Source: an uncultured Gammaproteobacteria bacterium (lineage in GTDB: Bacteria > Patescibacteriota > Patescibacteriia > UBA1558 > 2-01-FULL-52-15). From it: DNA of 55,641 nt. The DNA lies in contig CAZASM010000004.1 in assembly GCA_964487895.1 (NCBI GenBank), positions 1-55,641 of the forward strand, written 5' to 3'. Both the position numbers and the translations under genes were made by a program. This document shows, in pieces, positions 2,663 to 47,889 of the stretch (position 1 is its first letter; each line of letters opens with the position of its first letter). The notes below the pieces were generated by a model. It ran no database searches and was not told the DNA's origin. It saw nothing but the letters and a program-made list of their open reading frames with translations.

Positions 2663-2872
2663 GGGTAACTCCTATAAGGTATGAGTGATGATGAACAGCT
2701 AACGTGATACACTCTACGATAGAGTATTAAAGCTGTCAATTTAGCCCATTGGATAGTTGCTGTATCCAACGGGTTAAAGAAAATCCGCCTCGCACCATTA
2801 CAGTACGAGACGGATCCCGGCGAGAGACGCTCAGCGTCTCGAGGGACGCTGAGAGTTCCGAGGCATTTTCTG

Positions 2873-3016
2873 TTACTTGCCATGCAAGGAATTCTCGACG
2901 CAGAGATAGAGGACCACGATGCAGATGATGATTGTCACTCCATCGACAATCCAACCGTCAACATGGCGATCCAGCCAGTCTTTCCAGCCCCAGACAATCT
3001 TGGTAAACATAACCAT
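2873..3016 (-). CDS. Small hydrophobic protein, 47 aa (MVMFTKIVWGWKDWLDRHVDGWIVDGVTIIICIVVLYLCVENSLHGK), not in the ORF track
   Basis: Strong RBS gaaggagaa lies immediately upstream of the ATG, and there is a single predicted TM helix. It sits between cobA and the 98-aa gene on the same strand. Confidence 0.35.
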   Translation of the reverse strand: MVMFTKIVWGWKDWLDRHVDGWIVDGVTIIICIVVLYLCVENSLHGK

Positions 3017-3082
3017 TTCTCCTTCTGTAGGCAGCAGGTACGATAAACTATCTATAAAGCTAATCCTATTAGAAAAATTTGT

Positions 3083-3625
3083 CTAGTACTCAATTCCCTG
3101 TCTGGCTGCGACGCCTTTATAGAAGTAATGTTTTTTCAGCTTCATCTCTGTCACGAGATCGGCAGCGTCCATAATCTTCTTGGGAGCACGCCGACCGGTT
3201 AATACTAGCTCGATGTGTTCTGGTTTATCTTTCATCAGGGCTAGAACATCCGTTAGCTTCAACATTTTTAGCTTGGTAGAAGTATTGATTTCATCGAGAA
3301 TAATTAAGTCGTATTTTTTCTTAAACAAAGCTCGGGCTAATTGAAGACCACGCTCAGCTTCTGCCTTATCTTCATCGAGGATAGAGAAGCGGAAGGGCGT
3401 GCCCGGTTTGAAGCGGACTAAGCCAGTGACAAAGAAATCAACATTTTTCAATAACGGTAAACTATGACGTTCACCGTACTCAAACCCGCCTTTATCAAAG
3501 AAGATAATAGCTACTTTCTTGCCTTGTCCAGAAGCACGGAGAGCTAGGCCCAGACCGGCTGTTGTTTTGCCTTTACCATCTCCTGTGTAGACGTGGATTT
3601 GGCCTAAGGAGAATTTTTTATTCAT
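3083..3625 (-). CDS. cobA: ATP:cob(I)alamin adenosyltransferase, CobA/CobO/BtuR family
   Basis: P-loop YTGDGKGKTTAGLGLALRASGQGKKVAIIFFDKGG is typical of CobA-type corrinoid adenosyltransferases. It lies immediately downstream of the AdoCbl-dependent RNR. Confidence 0.75.
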   Translation of the reverse strand: MNKKFSLGQIHVYTGDGKGKTTAGLGLALRASGQGKKVAIIFFDKGGFEYGERHSLPLLKNVDFFVTGLVRFKPGTPFRFSILDEDKAEAERGLQLARALFKKKYDLIILDEINTSTKLKMLKLTDVLALMKDKPEHIELVLTGRRAPKKIMDAADLVTEMKLKKHYFYKGVAARQGIEY

Positions 3626-3689
3626 AAGTGATAATTAGGGGCGGGTTTAAAACCCGCCCTTATCATTAGTCGATTATATTGACAACATC

Positions 3690-10360: not shown

Positions 10361-10423
10361 GCTGATAGGTAGATTTAAATTATTTAAATGTAGCTATCAG
10401 CCCATAGTACTATCGGATATCCC
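10361..10423. repeat. Two perfect palindromes: gggctgatag-[25 nt]-ctatcagccc and ctatcggatatcccgatag
   Basis: Read directly; 10-bp and 7-bp perfect stems sharing ctatc. They lie between a putative promoter (ttgaca-17-tatatt, about 10289-10320) and the RBS of the island-1 gene. Confidence 0.6.
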
Positions 10424-10456
10424 GATAGACACAGGTGGCTGAAGAAGGAGGTTCGA

Positions 10457-11098
10457 TTGCTCGGTAACCCGCGGCACTTGAAGTATCCCCCCTGGTTCGA
10501 CACCTGTGTGACTCTGTTCGTGACTCTGATGGTCGCGCTCGGCTTCGGGCTCCTGATGCCCGTCAAGGCCGAAGCGGCAACGACGAAGTCTGTTTCCGGC
10601 GGTCTCCCTTTGGAGTGGTACGCAACCTGTCCCTCCAAGGCTGAGCCCCCCATGATCGGCGCGCAGTCCGCGGCAATGTTGCTGCAGGAAGTGAGGTCGG
10701 CTGACGCCACCTACGCTGCTTGCATGGCGAATTTCGGTCACTGCGTATTCTCTGCGACGAACTACGCGACGGTATCGATCACGAATCACGCCGACGGCGC
10801 CTCGATGATCATGCCAGCGATGATGACGACCACCGGCGGCAATACCAATGCCGCGGTTCTGATCAGCTACTATATCTCGACTATGCCCGACCGTTCCAAC
10901 CCGGCGGCCTATACCTCGGAGGGCGCCTCGACCGGGCGTTTCACCGGCGCCGCGTCGATGTACGCGGAGTTCGTTCCCGAGTATCGTCTTTCCAGGCCGG
11001 ATGTGGTCAAGACTCACTACTCACGACAACTGGACCGGGCGACTCGCGCGTCGCCCACCCACTCAACCAACCGGTTGATCCTGCGCAGGTTCTGCTGA
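10457..11098 (+). CDS. High-GC secreted hypothetical protein (signal peptide, Ala/Thr/Ser-rich)
   Basis: RBS aaggagg precedes a TTG start. Signal-peptide-like LFVTLMVALGFGLLMPVKAEA. The frame is uncertain because GC-rich DNA gives long ORFs in several frames. Confidence 0.4.
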   Translation: MLGNPRHLKYPPWFDTCVTLFVTLMVALGFGLLMPVKAEAATTKSVSGGLPLEWYATCPSKAEPPMIGAQSAAMLLQEVRSADATYAACMANFGHCVFSATNYATVSITNHADGASMIMPAMMTTTGGNTNAAVLISYYISTMPDRSNPAAYTSEGASTGRFTGAASMYAEFVPEYRLSRPDVVKTHYSRQLDRATRASPTHSTNRLILRRFC

Positions 11099-11154
11099 CC
11101 TGCACTTCTCGCCATCGGGACGCTTCCCGAAGTAGTTCAGTCTCGTGCTGACTA

Positions 11155-32497: not shown

Positions 32498-33226
32498 ATG
32501 GAGGTTGGAGTACTCTTAGCCTTTGGCGCCGGTTTCCTGACATTTTTTGCCGGTTGTTTACTCCCAATTTTACCAGCTTATCTTAGCTATCTGGGCGGCC
32601 TCTCCGCTTCATCTCAGGATGAAGACAGGGAGAGGCCGTTTTGGTTACGCAAAGTTTTCATTAATAGTTTATTTTTTTCTTTAGGGTTTATTGTTATCTT
32701 CGTTGCTTTCGGTTTGGTAGCGACGACGATAGGCAACAATATCATCAAAGACCGTCAGCTCTGGCAACATGTTGGTGGTGTTATTCTGATAGCGTTAGGC
32801 ATTTATAATTTGGAGTTAATTCCCTGGGCACGATTATTTGGTTCGGTGCAGTTCCGACCGCCGATGGCCCGTGCTCGTACGCGTTTGGGAGCTTTTATTT
32901 TAGGATTAACTTTTGGCTTTGCTTGGACACCGTGTATCGGTCCAACACTGGGGGCTATCTTGGTGGCTGCTAGTCTGGGCACATCAAAACTTTACGGCAT
33001 AATTTTGCTCGTAGTTTTTGGGTTAGGTTTAGCTTCACCTTTTATCATTTTTGGTCTGGTGGCTGAGTCAGTACGCAATAAACTATCAATAGTTAATCGT
33101 TGGGCATTGTATATACGTTGGTTTTTCTCCCTTATCATTATCATCATAGGTGTACTAATGCTGACAGGGCATATGAGCTATATTTCTTCTTGGTTTTTGG
33201 AGCGGGCTCCGGCGATTGTAATTTAG
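32498..33226 (+). CDS. ccdA: CcdA/DsbD-like transmembrane thiol-disulfide electron transporter
   Basis: FFAGCLLPILPAY...WTPCIGP: two conserved Cys-containing TM motifs of the CcdA family. Confidence 0.7.
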   Translation: MEVGVLLAFGAGFLTFFAGCLLPILPAYLSYLGGLSASSQDEDRERPFWLRKVFINSLFFSLGFIVIFVAFGLVATTIGNNIIKDRQLWQHVGGVILIALGIYNLELIPWARLFGSVQFRPPMARARTRLGAFILGLTFGFAWTPCIGPTLGAILVAASLGTSKLYGIILLVVFGLGLASPFIIFGLVAESVRNKLSIVNRWALYIRWFFSLIIIIIGVLMLTGHMSYISSWFLERAPAIVI

Positions 33227-33254
33227 GTCAGAAAGTTGGTTCTATGTTAAAGAC

Positions 33255-33290
33255 CTCCAATCATATTGATCGGAGGTCTTTGGTTTGTGA
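33255..33290. terminator. Bidirectional terminator (aaagacctccaatcatattgatcggaggtcttt)
   Basis: Perfect 9-bp stem flanked by A and T runs. Confidence 0.6.
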
Positions 33291-33303
33291 TTTGAGATAG
33301 TAC

Positions 33304-33720
33304 TCAGATAATTCTGATAACAACGCCAAAGCGGTTGAGGTATCCTAGGTGGATGATCTGGCCGTTACTCCAGTAGAGCAAGTCACCGGCACGAGCCAGT
33401 GATCTATCATGCTGAGTGAGTTTCAGATTACTATCGGCATCCCAGATCATCTGCGGGTTGCCATAGTATTGTGGCTGAAGCAAATCGCTGGCGAAACTCC
33501 AGTTGTAACCATGAGCCATCTCATGAATCAAGAGATCTGTGCCCCTCGGATATTCACCGTACTGAGTTGGGAGCCATTCTATGGCACTGATAATGCTCAG
33601 ACAGCTGCTACGCGTCATAATGTCACTACGCATTTCAATCACCACGGTAGTCAGGAGTGCCACATAGAGAATGCCGGCCAGCAAGACCCTAGCCCACAAT
33701 TCTTTTTCATGTCTGTACAT
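33304..33720 (-). CDS. Small membrane-anchored HExxH (zinc-metallopeptidase-like) protein
   Basis: The ATG at 33720 has RBS aaaggagg. One TM helix, then the motif LLIHEMAHGYNW. Moderately elevated GC. Confidence 0.45.
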   Translation of the reverse strand: MYRHEKELWARVLLAGILYVALLTTVVIEMRSDIMTRSSCLSIISAIEWLPTQYGEYPRGTDLLIHEMAHGYNWSFASDLLQPQYYGNPQMIWDADSNLKLTQHDRSLARAGDLLYWSNGQIIHLGYLNRFGVVIRII

Positions 33721-33923
33721 GGATAGTCCTCCTTTGAGGTGAGCTGGCGAAGAGATATACTCCCTTCGACACGGCTCTATTCTCAAAGGGAGCTACCCCA
33801 CCACTGGCTGATTTGGAACAACAATGAACAGGTACTCCAACCCTAGCAGGAGGGCTTTGATTTTGCAACAGCTCTATTTGGCAGCTATATTTATCTGTCA
33901 TAGGATGAATATGTCGACAAAAA

Positions 33924-33957
33924 TAAAACTCCACTTCAACTGGTGGAGTTTTATCTT
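33924..33957. terminator. Bidirectional terminator (aaaactccacttcaactggtggagtttt)
   Basis: Read directly. Confidence 0.6.
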
Positions 33958-33962
33958 GTAGG

Positions 33963-34223
33963 TTAACGACCTTTCTTTTTCGCGGCCATTTTTTTCATTA
34001 GACCGATAGCAGCGATAGTAGCAGCTGCAGCAGCTATACCCTGAAAAATTTTCTTCTTCATCTTGGGATCAAGCTTGGTATACATTTTTTTCGCCTGAGT
34101 AGCGTGATCAATCACTTGGTCGATCATGCTATTGATATCGTTAGCGTCATCAGCTGCATTCTTGATGATTTTCTTAGTTGCCGTTGGCATATGTGTATGG
34201 TTAATGATTAGTATTTTTAGCAT
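33963..34223 (-). CDS. Small Lys-rich protein with C-terminal hydrophobic helix
   Basis: ORF only; host-like low GC. Confidence 0.35.
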   Translation of the reverse strand: MLKILIINHTHMPTATKKIIKNAADDANDINSMIDQVIDHATQAKKMYTKLDPKMKKKIFQGIAAAAATIAAIGLMKKMAAKKKGR

Positions 34224-34373
34224 AACATCAAATGTAGAAAGGCAACAGCTTTTTTGAGGTAAAAAATGTTGTAATACTTTTCGTTAATTTGAAAAAGCCC
34301 GTCAGCTATTGGCTAACGGGCTCGAGAACTTTTCGGTCATGATGACCAGGCTGTTCTCCTTACCTTGGTGAAG

Positions 34374-35237
34374 TTACTTGAGAAAGTTGATCCCCTGCTG
34401 AAACCGGAGTTCCAGCTGAGGCGATTGACCCTCCACGATGTGGTGGTTGAGTTCCAGTCGGGATCTCCAACCCAACTGGCGCTGGATAGAGAAGAGACCA
34501 CCGAAGCGATTGCTGGCATTGACCTCTTCGAACTGTGCGCCGACTGACCAAACTTCGCTGAGTTTGACGATGCCGTTGAAGTGCAACGCGGTGTTGTCAT
34601 ATTCACGACGGGCAAGTGCAAAGTTCAGTTGCAGCGGTCCGTGCGCTGTTCCGATGAAAATCGCTTCGTAGTCACGATTTCCACGCGGCTCAACCTGACC
34701 AACCAGACTTACTGTCAGGTCGGGAGCCAAGTTGAACACAATGCGTCCAGCCAGATCGAGATCACCGTCGACGTTTTTGTTCAGAACGCCCTCGCCGTTG
34801 TAAGCGGCAAGGTGCGCCGAGAAGCTCTTGTCGGTATAGCCGACCATCACGCCCTCGTCCACGAACTGAGGGTTCAGCTTGAGGAGCGGGGTCGACGGAA
34901 AGAAAACATTCCACGGCCCCGGATGATCATAGGTCGTCAGCGTCAGCAGGATGCCGGCATCGACCTTGAGCCCCGAACCCAGGACGTAATTGACGTCCAA
35001 GATCTGGGGTTTGTTACTGACGAGGTTGTACTCACCGACGAGCGTCAGGCGCTCGTTGATGACCTTCTTGCCCAGCAGCCGAGCCACGGGGATATCGAAG
35101 GCCTCGTTATCGCCGGCGATGCTGCCCGTGGTCTGGAAGTATCCCCACAGCAGGTTGGTGTTCGACTGGGCTTCGGCGGACTGACAGGTGATGCTAACGC
35201 CGAGGAAAGCCACCAGTGCGATCAGGACAGACTTCAT
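34374..35237 (-). CDS. Secreted beta-strand-rich protein (porin/outer-membrane-like or periplasmic), high GC
   Basis: Signal peptide MKSVLIALVAFLGVSITCQSAEA; alternating hydrophobic pattern; RBS aaggagg. Confidence 0.45.
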   Translation of the reverse strand: MKSVLIALVAFLGVSITCQSAEAQSNTNLLWGYFQTTGSIAGDNEAFDIPVARLLGKKVINERLTLVGEYNLVSNKPQILDVNYVLGSGLKVDAGILLTLTTYDHPGPWNVFFPSTPLLKLNPQFVDEGVMVGYTDKSFSAHLAAYNGEGVLNKNVDGDLDLAGRIVFNLAPDLTVSLVGQVEPRGNRDYEAIFIGTAHGPLQLNFALARREYDNTALHFNGIVKLSEVWSVGAQFEEVNASNRFGGLFSIQRQLGWRSRLELNHHIVEGQSPQLELRFQQGINFLK

Positions 35238-35460
35238 GAACTGCCTCCTTACGGTTGAGTTGGAATGCTATTGTATTTCGTCTACGCCGCTGAAGATCTC
35301 TAAGGGCCAAAAGGCCGAGAGCTACGATCTGGGAGATTATCAGACAGGTCCGATAATAACCACAGACAAGGTATCTCTATATTGATCCGCTAGACAGCTA
35401 AAGCTGGAGTAGATCAACCAGATCTCCATGGGTGTAGACGAAATATGATTTATAAATGTG

Positions 35461-35533
35461 CGTTACTTTTCTGAACCAACCATCATTGATGATGAGTTCG
35501 GAAGAGCGGACGATACACCGAGGTGTATCGTCC
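35461..35533 (-). repeat. Island-2 intergenic repeat, copy A (conserved arm plus variant hairpin cggacgatacac-ctcg-gtgtatcgtccg)
   Basis: Shares ttctgaaccaaYcatcWttgWtgatga...cggaagag with copy D. A hairpin occupies the same position as in copies B, C and D but has a different sequence. Confidence 0.6.
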
Positions 35534-35550
35534 GATCACTACTGTCGTGT

Positions 35551-35991
35551 TCAGGGTTCGTCAGTTGGGGTAGCTTTCACCAACCAAAGGAAGTCGTTGT
35601 GGTAGATGCCTTGTGAGTCATTGTAGTGTACGTTAGTCACAAGCACCTTTTGACCGGCACGGACATCAACAGGATGAACCGTCTTAATCGTGTATACGGT
35701 TCCTTTGGGGTCTCTTGCTTCAAAGAAGCACAGGCCAACTTCCGAAGCCTCGCTGATGATACCTGTGACGACTTCATAGGTCGCGGGCTTGGTCCAGGGA
35801 TCGGTCAGGATTTCAGTGGGTTTGTAGGGCTCCACCGGAGAGTCGACAGCGACCTGATCGCTGGCGATCGCCGTACTGCGATCGGGCCAAGGAGCGGTCG
35901 TGCCCTTGGTCTTGTCGATGTAGTAGTACAGCGCAATAACGACAACTGCCAGAAATCCAACGAACTTCCATGTACGCATAAAACGGGGCAT
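35551..35991 (-). CDS. NfeD-like short protein (N-terminal TM plus C-terminal OB-fold beta domain)
   Basis: TM helix followed by GTVYTIKTVHPVDVRAGQKVLVTNV, which resembles the NfeD C-terminal domain that usually partners SPFH proteins. Confidence 0.4.
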   Translation of the reverse strand: MPRFMRTWKFVGFLAVVVIALYYYIDKTKGTTAPWPDRSTAIASDQVAVDSPVEPYKPTEILTDPWTKPATYEVVTGIISEASEVGLCFFEARDPKGTVYTIKTVHPVDVRAGQKVLVTNVHYNDSQGIYHNDFLWLVKATPTDEP

Positions 35992-36068
35992 GGTAGAAAC
36001 CTCCTAAAAGAGTGAATAGCTATACAGTAGTGTTATATGTAAACCGCTAAGCTAGCGGTGTTTTCGAA

Positions 36069-36149
36069 GAACGAATTACACGTCTGAGACTACTAGATCA
36101 AAGTCTACTAATCTCGGATGTGTGGAGGAAGCGACGAATCGCTTCCTCC
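36069..36149 (-). repeat. Island-2 intergenic repeat, copy B (hairpin ggaggaagcg-acgaat-cgcttcctcc)
   Basis: About 85% identical to copy C over roughly 80 nt; lies immediately 3' of the stop of the 114-aa gene. Confidence 0.65.
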
Positions 36150-36154
36150 GATGA

Positions 36155-36498
36155 TTACCTCTGCTGCACCCAATGAATATGAGACGGATGAGTTGAGTGG
36201 AATTCGGACGTAACTCCGTCTCCCAACTCGATGAAAGACTGCCGAATCATTTTTTCGGCTTGGAGAAACCCTTCCGCCGCCGACGTTTCATCAGCAAATC
36301 GAAATTTCTCCAGAAAAACACCCGCCACTTCTGGTTGTTCCGTCTCGAATTCTTCGTCTCCGAAGGAGACGACCCAACCTTTTTCTTTTTCGATCATACC
36401 GTTACATGACGGTAAATCGAATCCAGGGGACCAGAGGAACAAGTCGCTTCCTCTGAGTACGCATTCGAGCCCTCTGTAACTGTTGATGCATGCGAACA
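36155..36498 (-). CDS. Acidic cytoplasmic 114-aa hypothetical protein
   Basis: Strong RBS gggaggagg 6 nt upstream of the ATG at 36498. The track ORF extends to 36700 only by reading through repeat C. Confidence 0.45.
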
Positions 36499-36617
36499 TT
36501 TTTGCCTCCTCCCACCGAAGTGGGGATGTAAGTCTGGCCGGTCTGCGCGGAATGCGTGACCGGTAGAGCCAATCCCCTTCGCTGCGGGGTAGAAAAAACT
36601 TTTTATTTGAATGTAAT

Positions 36618-36698
36618 GAACTTAGTACACATCTGAGATTATTAGAACGAAGTCTACTAATCTCGGATGTGTGGAGGAAGCGATGTTCTGCTTCCTCC
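36618..36698 (-). repeat. Island-2 intergenic repeat, copy C (hairpin ggaggaagcg-atgttctg-cttcctcc)
   Basis: See copy B; the hairpin loop differs while the stem is conserved. Confidence 0.65.
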
Positions 36699-36712
36699 AA
36701 TTTGAACCATGT

Positions 36713-37063
36713 TCAGCGTCGCAGCCAGAACAGCAAGAAAAATGTTACAGTTCCGATGAGCCAGATGATCCCACCTGATACCAGGATGAATCTTACTCGG
36801 CTGACACGTAACTTGCTACTGCAACGATCGATCAGGTCAGGCCTGATATATTGATTGCTGAAATGCACGTAGAGCAAGATGGCCAGTGTGGTTACTGACA
36901 TCCCACCCAAGTTCGAGAAACAGAGGTAAGCTATCGGCTCAAGCAGACCTCCTGGTCCGGTATAGGGGCAAATCAAAGCATCGCGGAGCATGAGACCAAA
37001 GATTAGAATCACGACAGGAATTGAAAATCCTGTCGGTACATCTAGACTTCTGCGATTGAGCAT
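36713..37063 (-). CDS. Three- to four-TM small membrane protein
   Basis: RBS ggagg; hydrophobic helices. Confidence 0.45.
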   Translation of the reverse strand: MLNRRSLDVPTGFSIPVVILIFGLMLRDALICPYTGPGGLLEPIAYLCFSNLGGMSVTTLAILLYVHFSNQYIRPDLIDRCSSKLRVSRVRFILVSGGIIWLIGTVTFFLLFWLRR

Positions 37064-37137
37064 TGAAACCTCCAGAAAACTGGTGCACAGCAGTAAGAAA
37101 GATGTATGTAAATTGTCTTAAAGACAGCTTATGAAAA

Positions 37138-37271
37138 GAACTTAGTACTCTTCTGAACCAATCATCTTGTATGATGACAAGCTCGGAAGAGTGGAGGAAG
37201 CGACGAATCGCTTCCTCCATGAGAACATTTCGGTCATGTTGACCAGGTTGTTCTCCTATACCTTGTTGAAG
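37138..37271 (-). repeat. Island-2 intergenic repeat, copy D (full-length: stop-proximal arm, ggaggaagcgacgaatcgcttcctcc hairpin, distal arm)
   Basis: Contains all modules. The stop-proximal arm ttcggtcatgWtgaccaggYtgttctcc...gaagTTA recurs as copy E (34324-34373) after the last gene. Confidence 0.65.
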
Positions 37272-39185
37272 TTACCTGCTGAATTCGGGAGACGACGGAC
37301 CGTCGGTCATCGGGGGCTCGTCACCTTCGACGCTCACTGAGGCGGCATCGGGGGTGAACGGAACCTTCCTGACTTCCGGCGCCTTGCGCTCGAGACTGTC
37401 CTTGATCAGGCCAGCCATGAGCACGTTGACGAGAGTGTTACCACCACCGTCAGCACCACCGCCAGCCACGACGTCCGGTACCAGCTTGAAACCGCTGGTG
37501 GACAGCGCGCGGGCGACTTCGATCATGGCGAAGTTGCCGGATTCCATGGAGTCGATCTTCTGCTTGATGACCTTGGCTTCGGACGTTCCGACAGCCATGA
37601 TCTTCTCGCCTTCAGCGGCGCCGACGGTCTTGAGGACCATAGCGTCAGCTTCAGCGACGAGCTTCTTGGACTCGGCTTCACCCTTGGCCTTCTCGACGGC
37701 CGCGTTGGCCTCGAAGGTCTTGATGGAAACCTGCCGTTCCGCCTTCACCACGTCGGGCTGTGTGTCCGCCATGGCCTGAGCCTGCTGCAGATCACGCCGG
37801 ACATCCTGAGCCTTCTTCTGGGAAGCATAGGTAACTTCCCGTTGTTCGGCCAGCTTCCGGTCGGTCAGCGTGGTCATGAGATCATCCGGCGGAACGATGT
37901 CACCGATGAGGGTGTCCACCGCCACGACGTTGTACTCGTTGAGCGCTTCGGAAATCTTCGTGCGAGCATCGGCTTGACGTGCTTCGCGACCGCGCAGGAA
38001 GTCGATGACATCCGACCCCTGAGCAGTGTTGCGGAAGTAGTTGCCGATGATCGGCTCCAGCACCTGTGTCACCAGGTTCAGGACGCTGCCGAAGCGTGCG
38101 ATGACCTTCGGCGCTTCCTTGCCCGGAATGTGGATGATCTGGGAGACGTCGAGGTTGAACTTGAAGCCGTCCGACGACCGAACGGTGATCGTCGACAGCT
38201 TCTCATCCAGCTTGTGTGCCTCGGTCTTGCCCGTGGCCCAGTTCAGGACCACGTTGGCGGTCGGCACGTTCTCGACCTTGTGGGTGTAGGAATTGATCGG
38301 GTACTTGCCAGGATCGAGTGTGTCGACCCAGACGCCCTTCTCCCCCCGAGTCACCAGATTGCCGTGCTTGAAGGCCTCACCGGTGACGTCCACGCCTGCC
38401 TTGCCCACGTAGGCGATGACAACGCCGACATGAGCGATAGGAACGGTGGTCATCTCTTTGATTTCCACCGTGGCGAAACGCGGGTTGATGAAGTAGCGAC
38501 CAGCGAGCATCACCTGTTCCTGGAGGCCCTTATGACCTCCATTGTCGATGAAGCTCTGGCCATCCTGGTACATGTTGTGGCCGACGATCTCGTTTCCAGC
38601 GATGTCGCCAGTTGCGAGGGGCTTGCCTTCACGCGTCGTCACGATGCCGACCATGTTGTCCTCGATCTCGAGCACATTGGTCATGACCACCGTGAAGAGT
38701 GCAGTGTTGATGCGGTAGGTGCCAGGTGGGATGATCGTGATCTGAGGACCACGCTCTCCACCGTTTTCCAAGAAAAGCCGAGCGCTCTGGAAAGAGTCGC
38801 ACTCGATTCTCTTGGCGAGCACGCGACCGCCGGACAGCGGCTTACCGTCACGCGACTCGACGACTCCGAGGCTACCCTCGGGGATTTCCAGGAACTTCAC
38901 GCGTTCCACCTCATACTGCCACGGCCAGAAGCCGAAGTGCAGTCCGGGCGCCAGCGTGTCGGCCTGGTAGCCAGCTTCGCCCTTGAGAGCGATGATGGCG
39001 CCGTCGGGCAGGGTACGGTTGCCTCCGAAGAGGACGAACTTCTTGTTCACCACGCCGAGGGAATCCTCGGGGATGATGACGACTCCGAAGAGTCGCACCC
39101 AGATCCGGTTGGTCAGGATCAGCAGGAACAGGACGATCACCCCGATTGCTACGGGGACAAAGGGTCCGAGCAGCTCTTTCACCAA
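37272..39185 (-). CDS. Flotillin-like SPFH (band 7) domain protein
   Basis: N-terminal TM, SPFH core, then a long Ala/Glu/Lys-rich coiled-coil (AEQREV...EKAKGEAESKKLVAEADAMV...) typical of bacterial flotillins. The likely start is the GTG at 39182. Confidence 0.75.
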   Translation of the reverse strand: MVKELLGPFVPVAIGVIVLFLLILTNRIWVRLFGVVIIPEDSLGVVNKKFVLFGGNRTLPDGAIIALKGEAGYQADTLAPGLHFGFWPWQYEVERVKFLEIPEGSLGVVESRDGKPLSGGRVLAKRIECDSFQSARLFLENGGERGPQITIIPPGTYRINTALFTVVMTNVLEIEDNMVGIVTTREGKPLATGDIAGNEIVGHNMYQDGQSFIDNGGHKGLQEQVMLAGRYFINPRFATVEIKEMTTVPIAHVGVVIAYVGKAGVDVTGEAFKHGNLVTRGEKGVWVDTLDPGKYPINSYTHKVENVPTANVVLNWATGKTEAHKLDEKLSTITVRSSDGFKFNLDVSQIIHIPGKEAPKVIARFGSVLNLVTQVLEPIIGNYFRNTAQGSDVIDFLRGREARQADARTKISEALNEYNVVAVDTLIGDIVPPDDLMTTLTDRKLAEQREVTYASQKKAQDVRRDLQQAQAMADTQPDVVKAERQVSIKTFEANAAVEKAKGEAESKKLVAEADAMVLKTVGAAEGEKIMAVGTSEAKVIKQKIDSMESGNFAMIEVARALSTSGFKLVPDVVAGGGADGGGNTLVNVLMAGLIKDSLERKAPEVRKVPFTPDAASVSVEGDEPPMTDGPSSPEFSR

Positions 39186-39528
39186 TTTCTCCTTTCGAGA
39201 GTGTTTTTGCCGCGCTTTGCGGCGTATTTCTGGAACTATAGGAAAATTGACTAAACTTTCTTACATTTTAACGAACCTCCTTGTGAGAGCCCGCCCTTCG
39301 GGTTTACAAAAGAATGTATTACCTTAGTACATATAATCATATTTGTCAAGAGTAGAATTGACATTTTGTGCTAATGTTAGCCATTTACATTTAAAAAGTG
39401 TTTAATATTAGCCAAAATTTGATTTTAGGCTGAAAATGTACTAAACTCATAGGAGTTAAGTATGAGTTAATAGATCCCTTTTCGCTAAAGCTTCAGGGGA
39501 TGTCGTCTATTTAATTTTAACGTGCTCC

Positions 39529-39921
39529 ATGTTTAAATTAAGCACTCGCGTACAATATGGACTTGAGGTAATGGAGGCTTTAGCTACTAAGCCTGATTTC
39601 GTCTCTTTAACTGATCTATCTGAGGAGATTCATCGCTCGGCTAATTATCTCCAGCAGATTATCAAACCATTGAAGGAAGCTGGTTTAGTGATCAGTAAAG
39701 AGGGTGTGACTGGCGGTATCAAGTTAGCTAAATCACCTAAGGCCATTACCTTGTATGATGTGTTAGTTGCTCTCGATGGTGAAGTACAACCTATCAGCTG
39801 TTTGTCAGATGATCACGCCTGTCCCACGAAGCAAACCTGTGGTCATCGGAAATATTGGAGTAAGGTGACAGATATATTAGAAGAACAATTTAAGAACACT
39901 ACTCTCATTGATTTGAAATAA
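39529..39921 (+). CDS. Rrf2-family (IscR/SufR-like) transcriptional regulator
   Basis: HTH LSTRVQYGLEVMEALA, and a C-x-C-x-C cluster (CLSDDHACPTKQTC) consistent with an Fe-S ligand region. Confidence 0.7.
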   Translation: MFKLSTRVQYGLEVMEALATKPDFVSLTDLSEEIHRSANYLQQIIKPLKEAGLVISKEGVTGGIKLAKSPKAITLYDVLVALDGEVQPISCLSDDHACPTKQTCGHRKYWSKVTDILEEQFKNTTLIDLK

Positions 39922-39922
39922 T

Positions 39923-40702
39923 ATGGCGCTAGAAATAAAGAATTTAGAATTAACCCTTCGACAAGCTCAGGGTGACAGTGTTGTGAAAAGTATTATCCAT
40001 GATTTGTCGTTGACGATTAATATGGGTGAGGTTCATGCCATCATGGGACCGAATGGTTCTGGTAAAAGTAGTTTGTCGCAAGCGCTGATTGGAAATACAA
40101 AATATGAAATTACTGCTGGTCAAGTTTTGATAGATGGTAAAAATTTACTGGAGATGAAACCTGATAGACGGTTACGTCAGGGACTATTTCTTGGTTTTCA
40201 GTATCCACGGGAGATCGAAGGTGTACGCATCTCTACTTTCCTCAAGGCGATATACGAAAATAAATGTAAAGCGGTGATGGGTGACAAGTACAAGCCTACC
40301 TTGATGATTCGTTTCACCAAAACATTAGCAGGATTGATGACTACTTTGGGCATTGATACATCCTACATGCATCGCTATCTGAATCATGGTTTCTCCGGTG
40401 GTGAGAAAAAGAAGTTAGAAATATTACAGATGCAAATGGTTGATCCGCGTTATGTGATTATGGATGAGATTGATTCTGGTTTGGATATTGATGCCGTGCG
40501 GGTTATTAGCACTGCTCTGAATAATTTTCGTTCCAAGCATACAGGACTGTTACTCATTACGCATTACGATAGGATTCTCAAACTGGTGAAGCCGGACTTT
40601 GTGCATATTATGGTTGATGGCAGGATTGTTAGGTCGGGTGGGCCGGAGTTAGCACAGCAAGTGGAAAAAGCAGGATACGAAGATTTTAAAGTAATACCGT
40701 AG
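39923..40702 (+). CDS. sufC: Fe-S cluster assembly ATPase SufC
   Basis: Walker A GPNGSGKSS and ABC signature FSGGEKKK. Confidence 0.85.
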   Translation: MALEIKNLELTLRQAQGDSVVKSIIHDLSLTINMGEVHAIMGPNGSGKSSLSQALIGNTKYEITAGQVLIDGKNLLEMKPDRRLRQGLFLGFQYPREIEGVRISTFLKAIYENKCKAVMGDKYKPTLMIRFTKTLAGLMTTLGIDTSYMHRYLNHGFSGGEKKKLEILQMQMVDPRYVIMDEIDSGLDIDAVRVISTALNNFRSKHTGLLLITHYDRILKLVKPDFVHIMVDGRIVRSGGPELAQQVEKAGYEDFKVIP

Positions 40703-47001: not shown

Positions 47002-47889
47002 TTAATTAATATTGCCAGCCAAGTGTTTAATAGATGTTCGTTTAGTATATCCCATTTTGTTTTTGATTTCCTCTTCAGATAATCCTTGTGTATACAGCTT
47101 CGCTAGTCGTGCTCGGCGTAAATCATTGGCTGTTAGGTTTAATCCTGCACTGTGAGCATATTTTTCAATCACTCTCTGAACGGAACGGCTAGTCATGGGT
47201 TTGGGCTTTTTCACTTCTCTACCGCCGACAGCTCGATCATGGGAGATGAAAATATAGGGGTTAGGATAGGATCCGCCTGTGGTGGAAGGGCGTAGGGTTA
47301 AATAATCTTGGATATATCCTCTGACAGATTGAGAAAGTGGTAATTCATGATGACCCTGATGATCTTCATAGCGAATTTTATTCTTTTTCACCTGTTCAAT
47401 TCTCAGATTTGCAACGACTGCCAGCTTCAACCCAGTCTCTAGCATGAGACTAATTAAAGCTTGGTCTCTTTTTTTGATAATCAGAGGAGCGCGAGAGCTC
47501 ATGACTGACCGTAGAAGTTTAGTAAGTTCTGCTGTTGTTGGCAAGGTGGGTTGAGTTGCGTCAACTTTAGTCAATTTGATGGCTTTGGTGACTCGCAGGT
47601 TAACATTATGGGTAGATAGATATTGCAAAAAGTTTCTCAGAGCAATTAGATGATAGTTAATAGTTTTTTTATCTAGTTTTGTCTGACGGCCTTTGAGAGT
47701 TTTGAGATATGTTCGGTAATTAATAATTAGTGAATCAGTAATTTGTGCTGGTGTAGTTACCTTAGACCAGCGCAAAAAACGGCGTAGGTATAGTTCATAA
47801 TTACGAACGGTTAGAGGTGAGCGTTTTTTGATAAATTCCCACTCTTCCAGAAAGCTCAGTAACAATTTTTCTAAGGTATATGATGCCAT
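47002..47889 (-). CDS. Tyrosine recombinase, XerC/XerD/phage-integrase family (divergent catalytic C-terminus)
   Basis: The N-terminal SAM-like core-binding domain (LTVRNYELYLRRFLRW) is clear. The catalytic region (LRRARLAKLY...MGYTKRTS) is degenerate relative to the canonical HxLRH...LGH...Y. Confidence 0.6.
   Translation of the reverse strand: MASYTLEKLLLSFLEEWEFIKKRSPLTVRNYELYLRRFLRWSKVTTPAQITDSLIINYRTYLKTLKGRQTKLDKKTINYHLIALRNFLQYLSTHNVNLRVTKAIKLTKVDATQPTLPTTAELTKLLRSVMSSRAPLIIKKRDQALISLMLETGLKLAVVANLRIEQVKKNKIRYEDHQGHHELPLSQSVRGYIQDYLTLRPSTTGGSYPNPYIFISHDRAVGGREVKKPKPMTSRSVQRVIEKYAHSAGLNLTANDLRRARLAKLYTQGLSEEEIKNKMGYTKRTSIKHLAGNIN

What the first reader, a model, noticed from the sequence alone, without database searches (positions are those of the whole stretch)
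35461..37271. Structured intergenic repeat family placed immediately 3' of every island gene, with compensatory hairpin variation (attC-like or REP-like)
Five related elements follow the five stop codons, at 34324-34373, 35461-35533, 36069-36149, 36618-36698 and 37138-37271. They are modular: a stop-proximal arm that starts at the TAA, a perfect hairpin, and a distal arm with its own imperfect palindrome. Copies B, C and D carry ggaggaagcg-loop-cgcttcctcc with different loops. Copy A has a different but equally perfect hairpin, cggacgatacac-ctcg-gtgtatcgtccg, in the same place. Structure conserved while sequence varies implies selection on an RNA or DNA secondary structure. Being downstream of each ORF in a same-orientation array is the signature of integron attC sites or of REP/BIME-like elements. 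No intI is nearby, so this would be a CALIN-like array or a novel terminator/stabiliser family. The ATGGAGGAAGCG in the hairpin also creates spurious MEEA..RFLH ORF starts in the track.
Basis: seen in the sequence. Interest (0 to 1): 0.7.

Follow-up and report, generated by a model that had tools for sequence, protein, structure and literature searches.

The report
Modular hairpin repeats punctuating a foreign operon
Every gene of a horizontally acquired five-gene operon is followed by copies of a small family of hairpin-forming repeats whose stems are kept by compensatory mutations; they are not integron attC sites, and most likely act as structured gene punctuation that also served as joints for gaining or losing genes.

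Summary
All five island genes lie on the minus strand, and each is followed by repeats built from three hairpin modules. X is a 35-nt bipartite hairpin that starts at the stop codon. H is a perfect 28-nt hairpin. Y is a 41-44-nt imperfect hairpin with an invariant C.A mismatch. Folding z-scores are -4 to -7.6. Twelve H/Y pairs and three X pairs show two-sided compensatory changes.

The family is found only in this island and in syntenic islands of related genomes. It is absent from the other 50 kb of the contig and from Rfam.

Relatives show three states: no island, a two-gene core (flotillin-[X H Y]-porin-[X]-terminator), and here three extra orphan genes, each with its own H-Y. One H-Y copy is 100% identical over 72 nt to the copy in a lineage whose genes are only 72-80% identical. 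So H-Y is a discrete exchanged module.

attC membership fails: no R''/R' boxes, no single bipartite hairpin, no IntI. GTAG/CGTC REP membership also fails.

Best reading (about 0.4): BIME-like intercistronic stem-loops that act on the mRNA and double as recombination joints. A non-canonical cassette-recombination system is not excluded (about 0.17).

The parts
39183..39364 (-). Promoter-like region and about 150-nt leader of the island operon. It carries a TTGACA-type -35 box, two small hairpins and a conserved SD+ATG+stop mini-ORF.
   Evidence: This is the only sigma-70-like site on the gene strand in 33800-39600. The region is homologous in the L147/L151/L153 islands and absent from island-less L144.
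37272..39182 (-). Flotillin/SPFH (YqiK-like) gene, core gene 1; GC3 0.78.
   Evidence: Pfam Band_7, 1.2e-22. GC3. The gene is a mosaic whose centre is about 85% identical in DNA to the gene of a 61% GC genome.
37221..37274 (-). Element E, module X. It comprises the stop codon, the conserved linker TAACTTCAACAAGGTATAGGAG, and a 35-nt bipartite hairpin (7 bp GAGAACA/TGTTCTC, 4x4 internal loop, 5 bp, 3-nt loop).
   Evidence: Model R2 scores it 78 bits.
37192..37219 (-). Element E, module H1: a perfect 28-nt palindrome, TGGAGGAAGCG-ATTCGT-CGCTTCCTCCA.
37133..37191 (-). Element E, module Y1 (44-nt imperfect hairpin, 37148-37191) plus the 3' tail TACTAAGTTCTTTTC.
36713..37063 (-). 116-aa predicted membrane protein with a GGAGG ribosome-binding site and no Pfam family; extra gene unit 1.
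   Evidence: A Logan unitig is 100% identical across 36263-37500.
36611..36712 (-). Element D: 13-nt linker, H1' (36672-36699, one loop-closing A.C), Y2 (36628-36671), and tail TACTAAGTTCATTACAT.
   Evidence: Model R1 scores it 94 bits.
36155..36499 (-). 114-aa orphan protein; extra gene unit 2.
   Evidence: No relative among 1.84 billion representative proteins. No Pfam family.
36062..36154 (-). Element C: 5-nt linker, H1 (36123-36150), Y2 (36079-36122), and tail TAATTCGTTCTTCG. The H1+Y2 part is 100% identical over 72 nt to the flotillin-porin spacer of the L147 lineage.
35551..35991 (-). 146-aa orphan protein with an N-terminal TM helix and a beta-rich domain; extra gene unit 3.
   Evidence: No relative among 5.8 billion protein clusters. 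The AF2 model has low confidence, pLDDT 53.
35446..35550 (-). Element A: 16-nt linker, H2 (35507-35534, CGGACGATACAC-CTCG-GTGTATCGTCCG), Y1' (35466-35506, 41 nt), and tail TAACGCACATTTATAAAT.
   Evidence: (I11). Model R1 scores it 80 bits.
35274..35445 (-). 172-nt segment bounded by 26-nt inverted repeats and flanked by TA. It lies between element A and the porin start. It is either MITE-like or a structured 5' UTR, and it is not part of the repeat family.
   Evidence: (I4). RNA fold z = -6.3. It is absent from the L147-lineage spacer.
34374..35237 (-). Porin-like beta-barrel gene with a signal peptide, core gene 2; GC3 0.72.
   Evidence: Weak Pfam BBP2 match, E = 0.0046. 80% DNA identity to the L058/L147 homologue.
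34324..34376 (-). Element F: stop codon, conserved linker and the X hairpin (34324-34358).
   Evidence: (D3). Model R2 scores it 79 bits.
34290..34321 (-). Conventional intrinsic terminator (10-11-bp GC-rich stem followed by TTTTT) that ends the operon.
   Evidence: Fold. It is conserved in L146 and L153 and degenerate in island-less L144.

Best explanation
The elements are copies of a lineage-restricted family of modular palindromic intercistronic repeats. The modules are X, H, Y and a short 3' tail. They punctuate a horizontally acquired operon that has one promoter region and one terminator. They are not integron attC sites.

Most likely they are transcribed within the polycistronic mRNA and fold into tandem stem-loops directly after each stop codon. 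H, a perfect 11-12-bp stem without a U-tract, would act as a barrier to 3'-exonucleases; PNPase is encoded on the same contig. Y is a duplex of about 20 bp with an invariant C.A mismatch. It would serve as a processing site (RNase III-type) or a protein-binding site that separates the cistrons. Each foreign gene would thereby get an insulated, stabilised transcript end.

At the DNA level, the directly repeated H-Y modules of about 75-100 bp are the joints at which gene units were gained or lost. This produced the two-gene and five-gene versions of the island.

Shown: existence, module anatomy, stem covariation, position at stop codons, restriction to the island, the array polymorphism, and the exchange of H-Y as a discrete unit. 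Inferred: the RNA-level role and the recombination route.
For: - Anatomy and folding.
- Covariation: H+Y has 12 two-sided pairs, 93% of cells paired, 0/500 shuffles as good. X has 3 two-sided pairs and one sense-strand G.U intermediate.
- No U-tract terminators between the genes. The only promoter-like site on the gene strand lies upstream of the flotillin gene, and the single real terminator follows F.
- PNPase is present on the contig.
- Island specificity: models R1 and R2 find no further copy in the other 50 kb of the window or in 77-94 kb of related and unrelated loci.
- Array states: no island in L144/L145; the two-gene core in L147-L153; the five-gene version here.
- H1+Y2 of copy C is 100% identical over 72 nt to the L147-lineage spacer, while the flanking genes are 72-80% identical and the flanks are unrelated.
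- Mixed gene origins: GC3 is 0.78, 0.53, 0.52, 0.60 and 0.72 for the island genes, against 0.33-0.45 for host genes.
- Position and modular make-up match what is described for REP/BIME-type repeats: downstream of ORFs, between unidirectional genes, plausibly acting as RNA (PMC3733652).
Against: - There are no expression data.
- Mismatch types show no strand bias: 8 sense G.T against 12 sense C.A, or 8 against 7 without the invariant position. Selection on the sense RNA alone should favour G.U, so a DNA-level or two-strand role is equally compatible.
- 100% identity of a 72-nt non-coding module across lineages that differ by 20-28% suggests sequence-specific recognition or recent mobility. That is more than a generic stabiliser needs.
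- REP-type families are normally dispersed genome-wide. This one is seen only inside the island.
- RNase III cleavage of Y is pure inference.
Confidence: 0.4

Rival explanations
1. Non-canonical, integron-like gene-cassette array. H-Y (with X, or with the flanking AAC...GTTC motifs) is a structure-specific recombination site. A recombinase encoded elsewhere inserts circular gene+site units into the flotillin-porin spacer, giving n+1 sites for n captured genes.
For: - There are n+1 H-Y copies for n extra genes. The genes are co-oriented, apparently promoterless, and each has its own SD. Two of the three are orphans.
- GC3 is heterogeneous across the island genes.
- The elements start at or near the stop codon: TGAAC or GTAAC overlaps the stop, and GTTC lies 5-6 nt after Y in E, D, C and L147.
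- An identical H-Y module occurs in two unrelated contexts.
- Structure is conserved through sequence change, as in attC.
- CALINs without intI are common and rich in orphan cassettes (PMC4889954).
- Logan contigs of the L147 lineage end exactly at the X|H boundary (L150) and 17 nt after Y (L149). This may reflect alternative junctions in those samples.
Against: - No R''/R' consensus, no single R-UCS-L hairpin and no extrahelical bases.
- No IntI on the 55.6-kb contig. The Xer-like gene is syntenic in the island-less relative.
- The two-gene state can equally arise from the five-gene state by ordinary recombination between direct H-Y repeats.
- Only two occupied array states are known.
- Copy A lacks the GTTC motif.
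Confidence: 0.17
2. Non-autonomous mobile element (MITE, REPIN or IS200/IS605-derived hairpin element). It inserted repeatedly downstream of genes and has no function of its own for the host.
For: - H-Y is a discrete unit of about 76-80 nt with sharp ends, found identical in unrelated contexts.
- Y resembles a REPIN: two inverted arms of about 20 nt with a conserved mismatch.
- A (G/T)TAC or TCAC tetranucleotide abuts the foot of Y on the + strand.
- The modular mosaic resembles BIME and BOX elements.
Against: - No copy outside the island in 50 kb of host DNA or in relatives' host DNA.
- No transposase or RAYT on the contig.
- No terminal inverted repeats or target duplications at the H-Y ends.
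- No GTAG/CGTC tag (PMC3733652).
- Perfectly compensated stems (H1 versus H2) argue for long-term selection, not decay.
- Absent from 185,579 species genomes (H1 pattern) apart from the same lineage.
Confidence: 0.15
3. Double-stranded site-specific recombination sites. H is a 28-bp perfect palindrome, readable as 11+6+11 (dif/pdif geometry) or 12+4+12 (geometry of resolvase site I). X-H-Y resembles a three-subsite res-like region. The host Xer or an unseen serine recombinase would shuffle the modules, as with pdif modules on Acinetobacter plasmids.
For: - The geometry of H.
- E, C and L147 share an identical central region, ATTCGT.
- A Xer-type recombinase is encoded 8 kb away.
- The lack of strand bias in mismatches is compatible with a DNA-level role.
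Against: - There is no sequence resemblance to known dif cores (my own knowledge; not tested).
- H1 and H2 differ at 5 of 12 arm positions with perfect compensation. That is expected for a hairpin, not for a protein-read half-site.
- The geometry is also what any 11-12-bp stem with a 4-6-nt loop gives.
- The Xer gene is present in the island-less relative.
Confidence: 0.07
4. Ordinary transcription terminators or attenuators after each gene.
For: Stable GC-rich hairpins lie directly after the stop codons.
Against: X, H and Y are not followed by a T-run; only the hairpin at 34290-34321 is. Plain terminators would not explain near-identical complex modules after unrelated genes, or the invariant mismatch.
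Confidence: 0.05

Closest known systems
Integron attC sites / CALIN (clusters of attC sites lacking an integron-integrase)
   Same: One structured repeat sits after each co-oriented gene that lacks its own promoter. The repeat begins at or overlaps the stop codon. Structure is conserved through sequence change. Orphan genes of mixed composition are present. There is no integrase nearby. The number of gene units varies between relatives.
   Different: No RYYYAAC/GTTRRRY boxes. The elements form two or three independent tandem hairpins rather than one R-UCS-L-VTS hairpin. There are no extrahelical bases. No IntI is present anywhere on the contig. The core two-gene operon with its element is stably inherited in two lineages.
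REP / BIME / REPIN elements (also the neisserial NIME and pneumococcal BOX mosaic repeats)
   Same: Imperfect palindromes combined as a mosaic of modules. They lie downstream of ORFs between unidirectional genes and are plausibly transcribed. Proposed roles include mRNA stabilisation and acting as recombination substrates.
   Different: No GTAG/CGTC tag. Not dispersed: 5 copies in 5 kb of foreign DNA and none in 50 kb of host DNA. No RAYT was seen. The modules are longer and more elaborate: the bipartite X, and the 44-nt Y with an invariant mismatch.
Intercistronic RNase III processing hairpins of phage T7 early mRNA and comparable operon-internal stabiliser stem-loops (my own knowledge)
   Same: Related hairpins are repeated between consecutive cistrons of one transcript. 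A duplex of about 20 bp with an internal mismatch lies next to a hairpin that would remain at the 3' end of the upstream message.
   Different: No experimental evidence here. The T7 sites are single hairpins, not H+Y pairs. Those sites are not known to be exchanged between genomes as discrete modules.
pdif modules (Xer-dependent gene modules on Acinetobacter plasmids)
   Same: Genes are bracketed by 28-bp sites with 11-6-11 geometry, in arrays that differ between relatives.
   Different: H is a perfect palindrome with no similarity to the dif consensus. The sites are accompanied by Y and X. The setting is chromosomal. No evidence of Xer involvement.

Membership tests
Integron attC site | R'' and R' boxes (RYYYAAC ... 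GTTRRRY) with conserved AAC/GTT triplets, complementary to each other (PMC5027507) | tested here: not met
   A scanner allowing 1 mismatch per box and requiring at least 5/7 complementarity recovers the dfrA1 (95-nt) and aadA1 (60-nt) attC sites in the class 1 integron control L154. It gives no such site spanning any island gene end. Only loose AAC...GTTC motifs flank E and D.
Integron attC site | A single imperfect hairpin in which R''-L'' pairs with L'-R', with an unpaired central spacer, extrahelical bases and a variable terminal structure | tested here: not met
   ssDNA folds of both strands give two or three separate tandem hairpins (X, H, Y). The ends of an element can pair over at most 5 bp. 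X alone mimics an R-UCS-L layout (7 bp, 4x4 loop, 5 bp), but it is 35 nt long, has no extrahelical bases, and occurs only after two of the genes.
Integron attC site | Significant hit to the IntegronFinder attC covariance model | not testable with these tools
   The model and its seed alignment are not available here. Rfam has no attC family, and Rfam gave no hit in 33000-40000.
Complete integron / CALIN | IntI nearby (complete integron), or at least 2 bona fide attC sites within 4 kb without IntI (CALIN) (PMC4889954) | tested here: not met
   The only tyrosine recombinase, 47002..47889, scores 25.5 bits on TIGR02249 (cut-off 265) and is best matched by Xer models. No other recombinase was found among the ORFs of 120 aa or more submitted to Pfam/NCBIfam; the remaining such ORFs are syntenic housekeeping genes annotated in relative L144. 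CALIN status requires attC sites, and that requirement fails above.
Integron cassette array (behaviour) | Gene+site units that differ in number or order between related genomes, with the same site type in different contexts | tested here: inconclusive
   Two-gene versus five-gene arrays, and an identical H1+Y2 module in two contexts. However, deletion between direct repeats explains the same data.
REP / REPIN (RAYT-associated) | 20-40-bp palindrome with an unpaired GTAG or CGTC tag at one end (PMC3733652) | tested here: not met
   The bases abutting the foot of Y on the + strand are GTAC, GTAC, TTAC, TTAC and TCAC. H has no tag.
REP / BIME | High copy number, dispersed through the extragenic space of the genome | tested here: not met
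   Models R1 and R2 (filters off) find copies only in the island. They find none in the other 50 kb of the contig or in relatives' host DNA. The rest of the genome could not be examined.
REP / BIME | Located downstream of ORFs between unidirectional or convergent genes; mosaic of palindromic units with other motifs | tested here: met
REP / REPIN | A cognate RAYT (Y1 HUH transposase) in the genome | not testable with these tools
   None on the 55.6-kb contig. The remainder of the genome is not available.
Intrinsic (rho-independent) terminator | GC-rich hairpin followed directly by a U/T-run | tested here: not met
   X, H and Y lack a T-run. Only 34290-34321 meets the definition.
Xer/dif-type site (pdif module) | 28-bp site with two 11-bp recombinase-binding arms around a 6-bp centre, similar to the dif consensus and recombined by Xer | tested here: inconclusive
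   H meets the geometry. Similarity to a dif consensus and Xer activity were not tested. The compensated arm changes between H1 and H2 argue for a hairpin.

The most novel reading that the evidence does not exclude
H-Y (about 76-100 nt; two adjacent hairpins, one perfect and one with an invariant mismatch) is the recombination site of an IntI-independent gene-cassette platform that has not been described before. It would capture orphan genes into the intercistronic spacer of an expressed operon in a small, probably CPR-like genome, using a recombinase encoded elsewhere. That would be functionally an integron analogue with an unrelated site architecture.
Probability: 0.15. Interest if true: 0.85.

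Novelty: new variant of a known kind. Interest (0 to 1): 0.5.

Why it matters
If these are mRNA punctuation modules, they show how a small genome can make foreign genes from several donors expressible. Each gene would receive the same portable transcript-end and processing structure, a natural counterpart of the insulators used in synthetic operons. If instead they are recombination sites, this would be a second, structurally unrelated solution to gene-cassette capture. It would bear on the open question of how cassettes acquire their sites. Either way, the locus is compact and testable: few copies, clear covariation, and three natural array states.

Tried and rejected
1. Rfam, in both gathering and permissive modes: only chance miRNA-like scores on the hairpins.
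All but one are unrelated terminator-like hairpins. Only L058 carries the true element.
3. Metagenome-contig scan with the Y/H junction: 19 hits, all of them coding LGRVEEA motifs.
4. Viral-contig scans with H1, Y2 and Y1 arms: nothing, or chance coding hits. PLSDB plasmids: no match.
5. attI-like idea. The TACTAAGG upstream of the flotillin gene resembles the element tail. It is the -10 region of the promoter and is not conserved in L147, so the idea was rejected.
6. Small-ORF idea. A 31-codon ORF runs through E, but its frame is not conserved in D, so the idea was rejected (direct reading).
7. Flotillin homologues at about 75-92% identity in other genomes (L140-L143) carry no element. The element therefore does not travel with the flotillin gene in general.
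8. Strand test by wobble versus C.A counts: no bias, uninformative.
9. Function of the orphan genes: no homologues were found for the 146-aa and 114-aa proteins; the 116-aa protein was checked only against Pfam and by exact-sequence look-up. The PDB gave nothing and the AF2 model has low confidence, so no fold search was made.
10. A proxy attC covariance model from published alignments: the supplementary files are not held. A rule-based scanner with positive controls was used instead.
11. Exact look-ups of the porin and the 114-aa protein: not on record.
Full report
**Setting.** The window is a complete 55,641-bp NCBI contig of about 43% GC. Between 34290 and about 39360 lies a stretch of 50-60% GC. 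It holds five genes, all on the minus strand:
- a flotillin/SPFH gene (39182..37272; Pfam Band_7, 1.2e-22);
- a 116-aa membrane protein (37063..36713);
- a 114-aa protein (36499..36155);
- a 146-aa membrane-anchored protein (35991..35551);
- a porin-like beta-barrel protein (35237..34374; weak BBP2 match).

Their GC3 values are 0.78, 0.53, 0.52, 0.60 and 0.72, against 0.33-0.45 for the flanking host genes. The intergenic elements have 0.40-0.47 GC. The 146-aa and 114-aa proteins have no relative in 5.8 billion protein clusters and 1.84 billion representative proteins respectively.

**The observation.** They are built from three hairpin modules.
- X is present only after the flotillin gene (E) and the porin gene (F). 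It begins at the stop codon with a conserved single-stranded linker (TAAC..CAAGGTA(T)AGGAG). A 35-nt bipartite hairpin follows: 7 bp GAGAACA/TGTTCTC, a 4x4 internal loop, 5 bp, and a 3-nt loop.
- H is a perfect 28-nt palindrome. H1 occurs in E and C, H1' with one loop-closing A.C in D, and H2 in A.
- Y is a 41-44-nt imperfect hairpin in two variants. Y1 occurs in E and A, Y2 in D and C. Both share the foot CNCNTCCGA(R)...TCAGANGNG and an invariant C.A mismatch at the seventh pair.

A short tail follows Y: TACTAAGTTC in E and D, TAATTCGTTC in C, TAACGCAC in A. F is X alone, followed by an ordinary hairpin+TTTTT terminator at 34321..34290.

The H1 and X patterns have zero expected chance matches. 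All elements fold much better than shuffled sequence on either strand, z = -4.0 to -7.6.

**Covariation.** In an alignment of the five distinct H+Y copies (four here, one from a related genome), 93% of cells are paired. Twelve of 29 pairs carry changes on both sides. No shuffle out of 500 reaches the observed values, and sliding the partners drops pairing to 35-55%. H2 is clearly homologous to H1 (GGA.GA..C shared) and differs by five fully compensated pairs. In five X copies, three pairs changed on both sides and one copy shows the G.U intermediate. Selection on hairpin structure is therefore well supported.

The type of mismatch shows no strand bias: 8 G.T against 12 C.A on the sense strand, or 8 against 7 without the invariant position. 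The data therefore do not say whether sense RNA, antisense RNA or single-stranded DNA is the selected form.

**Distribution.**
- Covariance models of H+Y (R1) and X (R2), run without filters, find no further copy in the other 50 kb of the contig or in 77-94 kb of related and unrelated loci.
- Rfam has nothing.
- The H1 pattern, searched in one genome from each of 185,579 species, gave many unrelated terminator-like hairpins and one true copy, contig CAYYYA010000031.1 (L058/L147).
- Metagenome, viral and plasmid searches gave only chance hits.

**Comparative anatomy of the locus.** Relatives share the host genes BlaI-BlaR1-DsbA-CcdA on one side and Rrf2-SufCBDS on the other.
- L144/L145 have no flotillin-porin island at all. 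They retain a degenerate remnant of the island's terminator.
- L147-L153 (several samples) carry promoter-leader-flotillin-[X H1 Y2]-porin-[X]-terminator.
- L146 has porin-[X]-terminator.

The window thus has the same core operon with three extra gene units between flotillin and porin. That gives four H-Y copies where the sister lineage has one. Two independent Logan unitigs from SRR8893623 are 100% identical to 34789-36114 and 36263-37500, so the array is not a binning or assembly artefact.

The H1+Y2 of copy C (after the 114-aa gene) is 100% identical over 72 nt to the sister lineage's flotillin-porin spacer. Yet the flotillin and porin genes of the two lineages are only 72-80% identical and the flanks of the two copies are unrelated. 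The positional orthologue (E) instead carries Y1. H-Y is therefore a discrete module that has been exchanged or moved recently relative to the divergence of the genes.

**Is it attC?** Published definitions require four things (PMC5027507; PMC4889954):
- complementary R''/R' boxes (RYYYAAC/GTTRRRY);
- a single hairpin with an unpaired central spacer, extrahelical bases and a variable terminal structure;
- for a complete integron, an IntI;
- for a CALIN, at least two attC sites within 4 kb.

A rule-based scanner recovered both attC sites (dfrA1, aadA1) of a class 1 integron control on both strands. It found nothing spanning any island gene end. The elements fold as separate tandem hairpins, not as one bipartite stem. 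The sole tyrosine recombinase on the contig (47002..47889) scores 25.5 bits on the integron-integrase model (cut-off 265) and best matches Xer models. Its orthologue sits at the same place in the island-less relative. No transposase or RAYT is present. attC membership therefore fails on every feature that could be tested. The IntegronFinder model itself could not be run.

**Is it REP/BIME?** Position (after ORFs, between unidirectional genes) and mosaic make-up fit. The defining GTAG/CGTC tag is absent, and so is a dispersed high copy number in the DNA available (PMC3733652). The hairpins are not intrinsic terminators, because none has a T-run.

**How it most likely works.** On the gene strand, the only promoter-like region lies upstream of the flotillin gene and the only real terminator lies after F. 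The five genes are therefore probably one transcript, and the elements are intercistronic RNA. My preferred model (confidence about 0.4) has three steps.
1. H acts as a 3'-exonuclease barrier.
2. Y, a duplex of about 20 bp with an invariant mismatch, acts as a processing or protein-binding site. Each foreign cistron thereby receives a standard, stabilised end, in the way REP/BIME elements and phage T7 RNase III sites do.
3. The directly repeated H-Y modules serve as the DNA joints at which gene units are gained or lost.

The RNA role is inference. The n+1 pattern, the orphan genes of mixed composition, the stop-codon-proximal AAC and post-Y GTTC motifs, and the exchanged module keep an integron-like, IntI-independent cassette mechanism alive (about 0.15-0.17). 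A MITE-like element (0.15), a dsDNA Xer/res-like site (0.07; H has 11-6-11 / 12-4-12 geometry) and plain terminators (0.05) are weaker.

**Verdict.** The attC/CALIN interpretation is not supported, and the 'REP-like or novel stabiliser' alternative is partly supported. I file the family as a new variant of structured intergenic mosaic repeats. It is unusual in being confined to a horizontally acquired operon and in marking every gene junction. Interest is moderate (0.5). It would be high if the modules prove to be recombination sites.

Noticed in passing
window 35274-35445: A 172-nt segment with 26-nt terminal inverted repeats (TATTTCGTCTAC...), flanked by TA on both sides, lies between element A and the porin start. 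It folds into a multibranch structure (RNA z = -6.3). It is absent from the sister lineage's spacer, has no other copy in the window and no Rfam hit. It is either a MITE-like insertion or a structured 5' UTR.
   Followed up: partly
window ~39255-39290 (minus strand) and L147 ~1600-1640: The leader upstream of the flotillin gene contains a conserved strong SD followed by ATG and an immediate stop (AAGGAGGTTCGTTAAAATGTAA here; ...ACAAATGTAG in L147). This is a start-stop mini-ORF, flanked by two small conserved hairpins.
   Followed up: no
window 37272-39182 versus L140 2095-3936 and L147 1747-3657: The flotillin gene is a mosaic. Its central 1.5 kb or so is about 85% identical in DNA (92% in protein) to the gene of a 61% GC genome that has no element. 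It is only 62-80% identical to the sister island's gene. The leader, the C-terminal tail and the 3' element are closer to the sister island. This points to allele replacement by recombination inside the coding region.
   Followed up: partly
L147 ~3350-3650 versus L153 ~2820-3120: Two otherwise 100% identical islands differ only in the roughly 250 nt that encode the flotillin C-terminal tail, just upstream of the stop codon and X (70-89% identity). This is a local hot spot of variation next to the element.
   Followed up: no
window 33227-39528; L144 10730-12208; L146 1131-3206; L153 815-5461: The interval between CcdA and the Rrf2-suf operon is a variable region in this lineage, with different sets of genes. 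It includes further high-GC3 (0.70-0.72) 217/218-aa secreted proteins that do not carry the repeats.
   Followed up: partly
L150 end (2253) and L149 end (3438): Logan contigs from two samples stop exactly at the X|H boundary and 17 nt after Y respectively. This could reflect assembly-graph branches, that is, alternative neighbours at the module boundaries in those populations. It could equally be a drop in coverage.
   Followed up: no
whole window; L058 record title: The host gene content looks CPR/Patescibacteria-like: split transketolase, an RpiB-Rpe fusion, 2-oxoacid:ferredoxin oxidoreductase, YkuD with TSP3 repeats, a type IV pilus ATPase, a Suf system and a single Xer. Yet the related contig is titled 'Gammaproteobacteria'. 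A porin-like gene in such a host would be notable.
   Followed up: partly
window 10397-11151: A local GC peak (0.54) contains overlapping ORFs on both strands (206, 213 and 143 aa) with no Pfam family. No RNA family was detected there.
   Followed up: no
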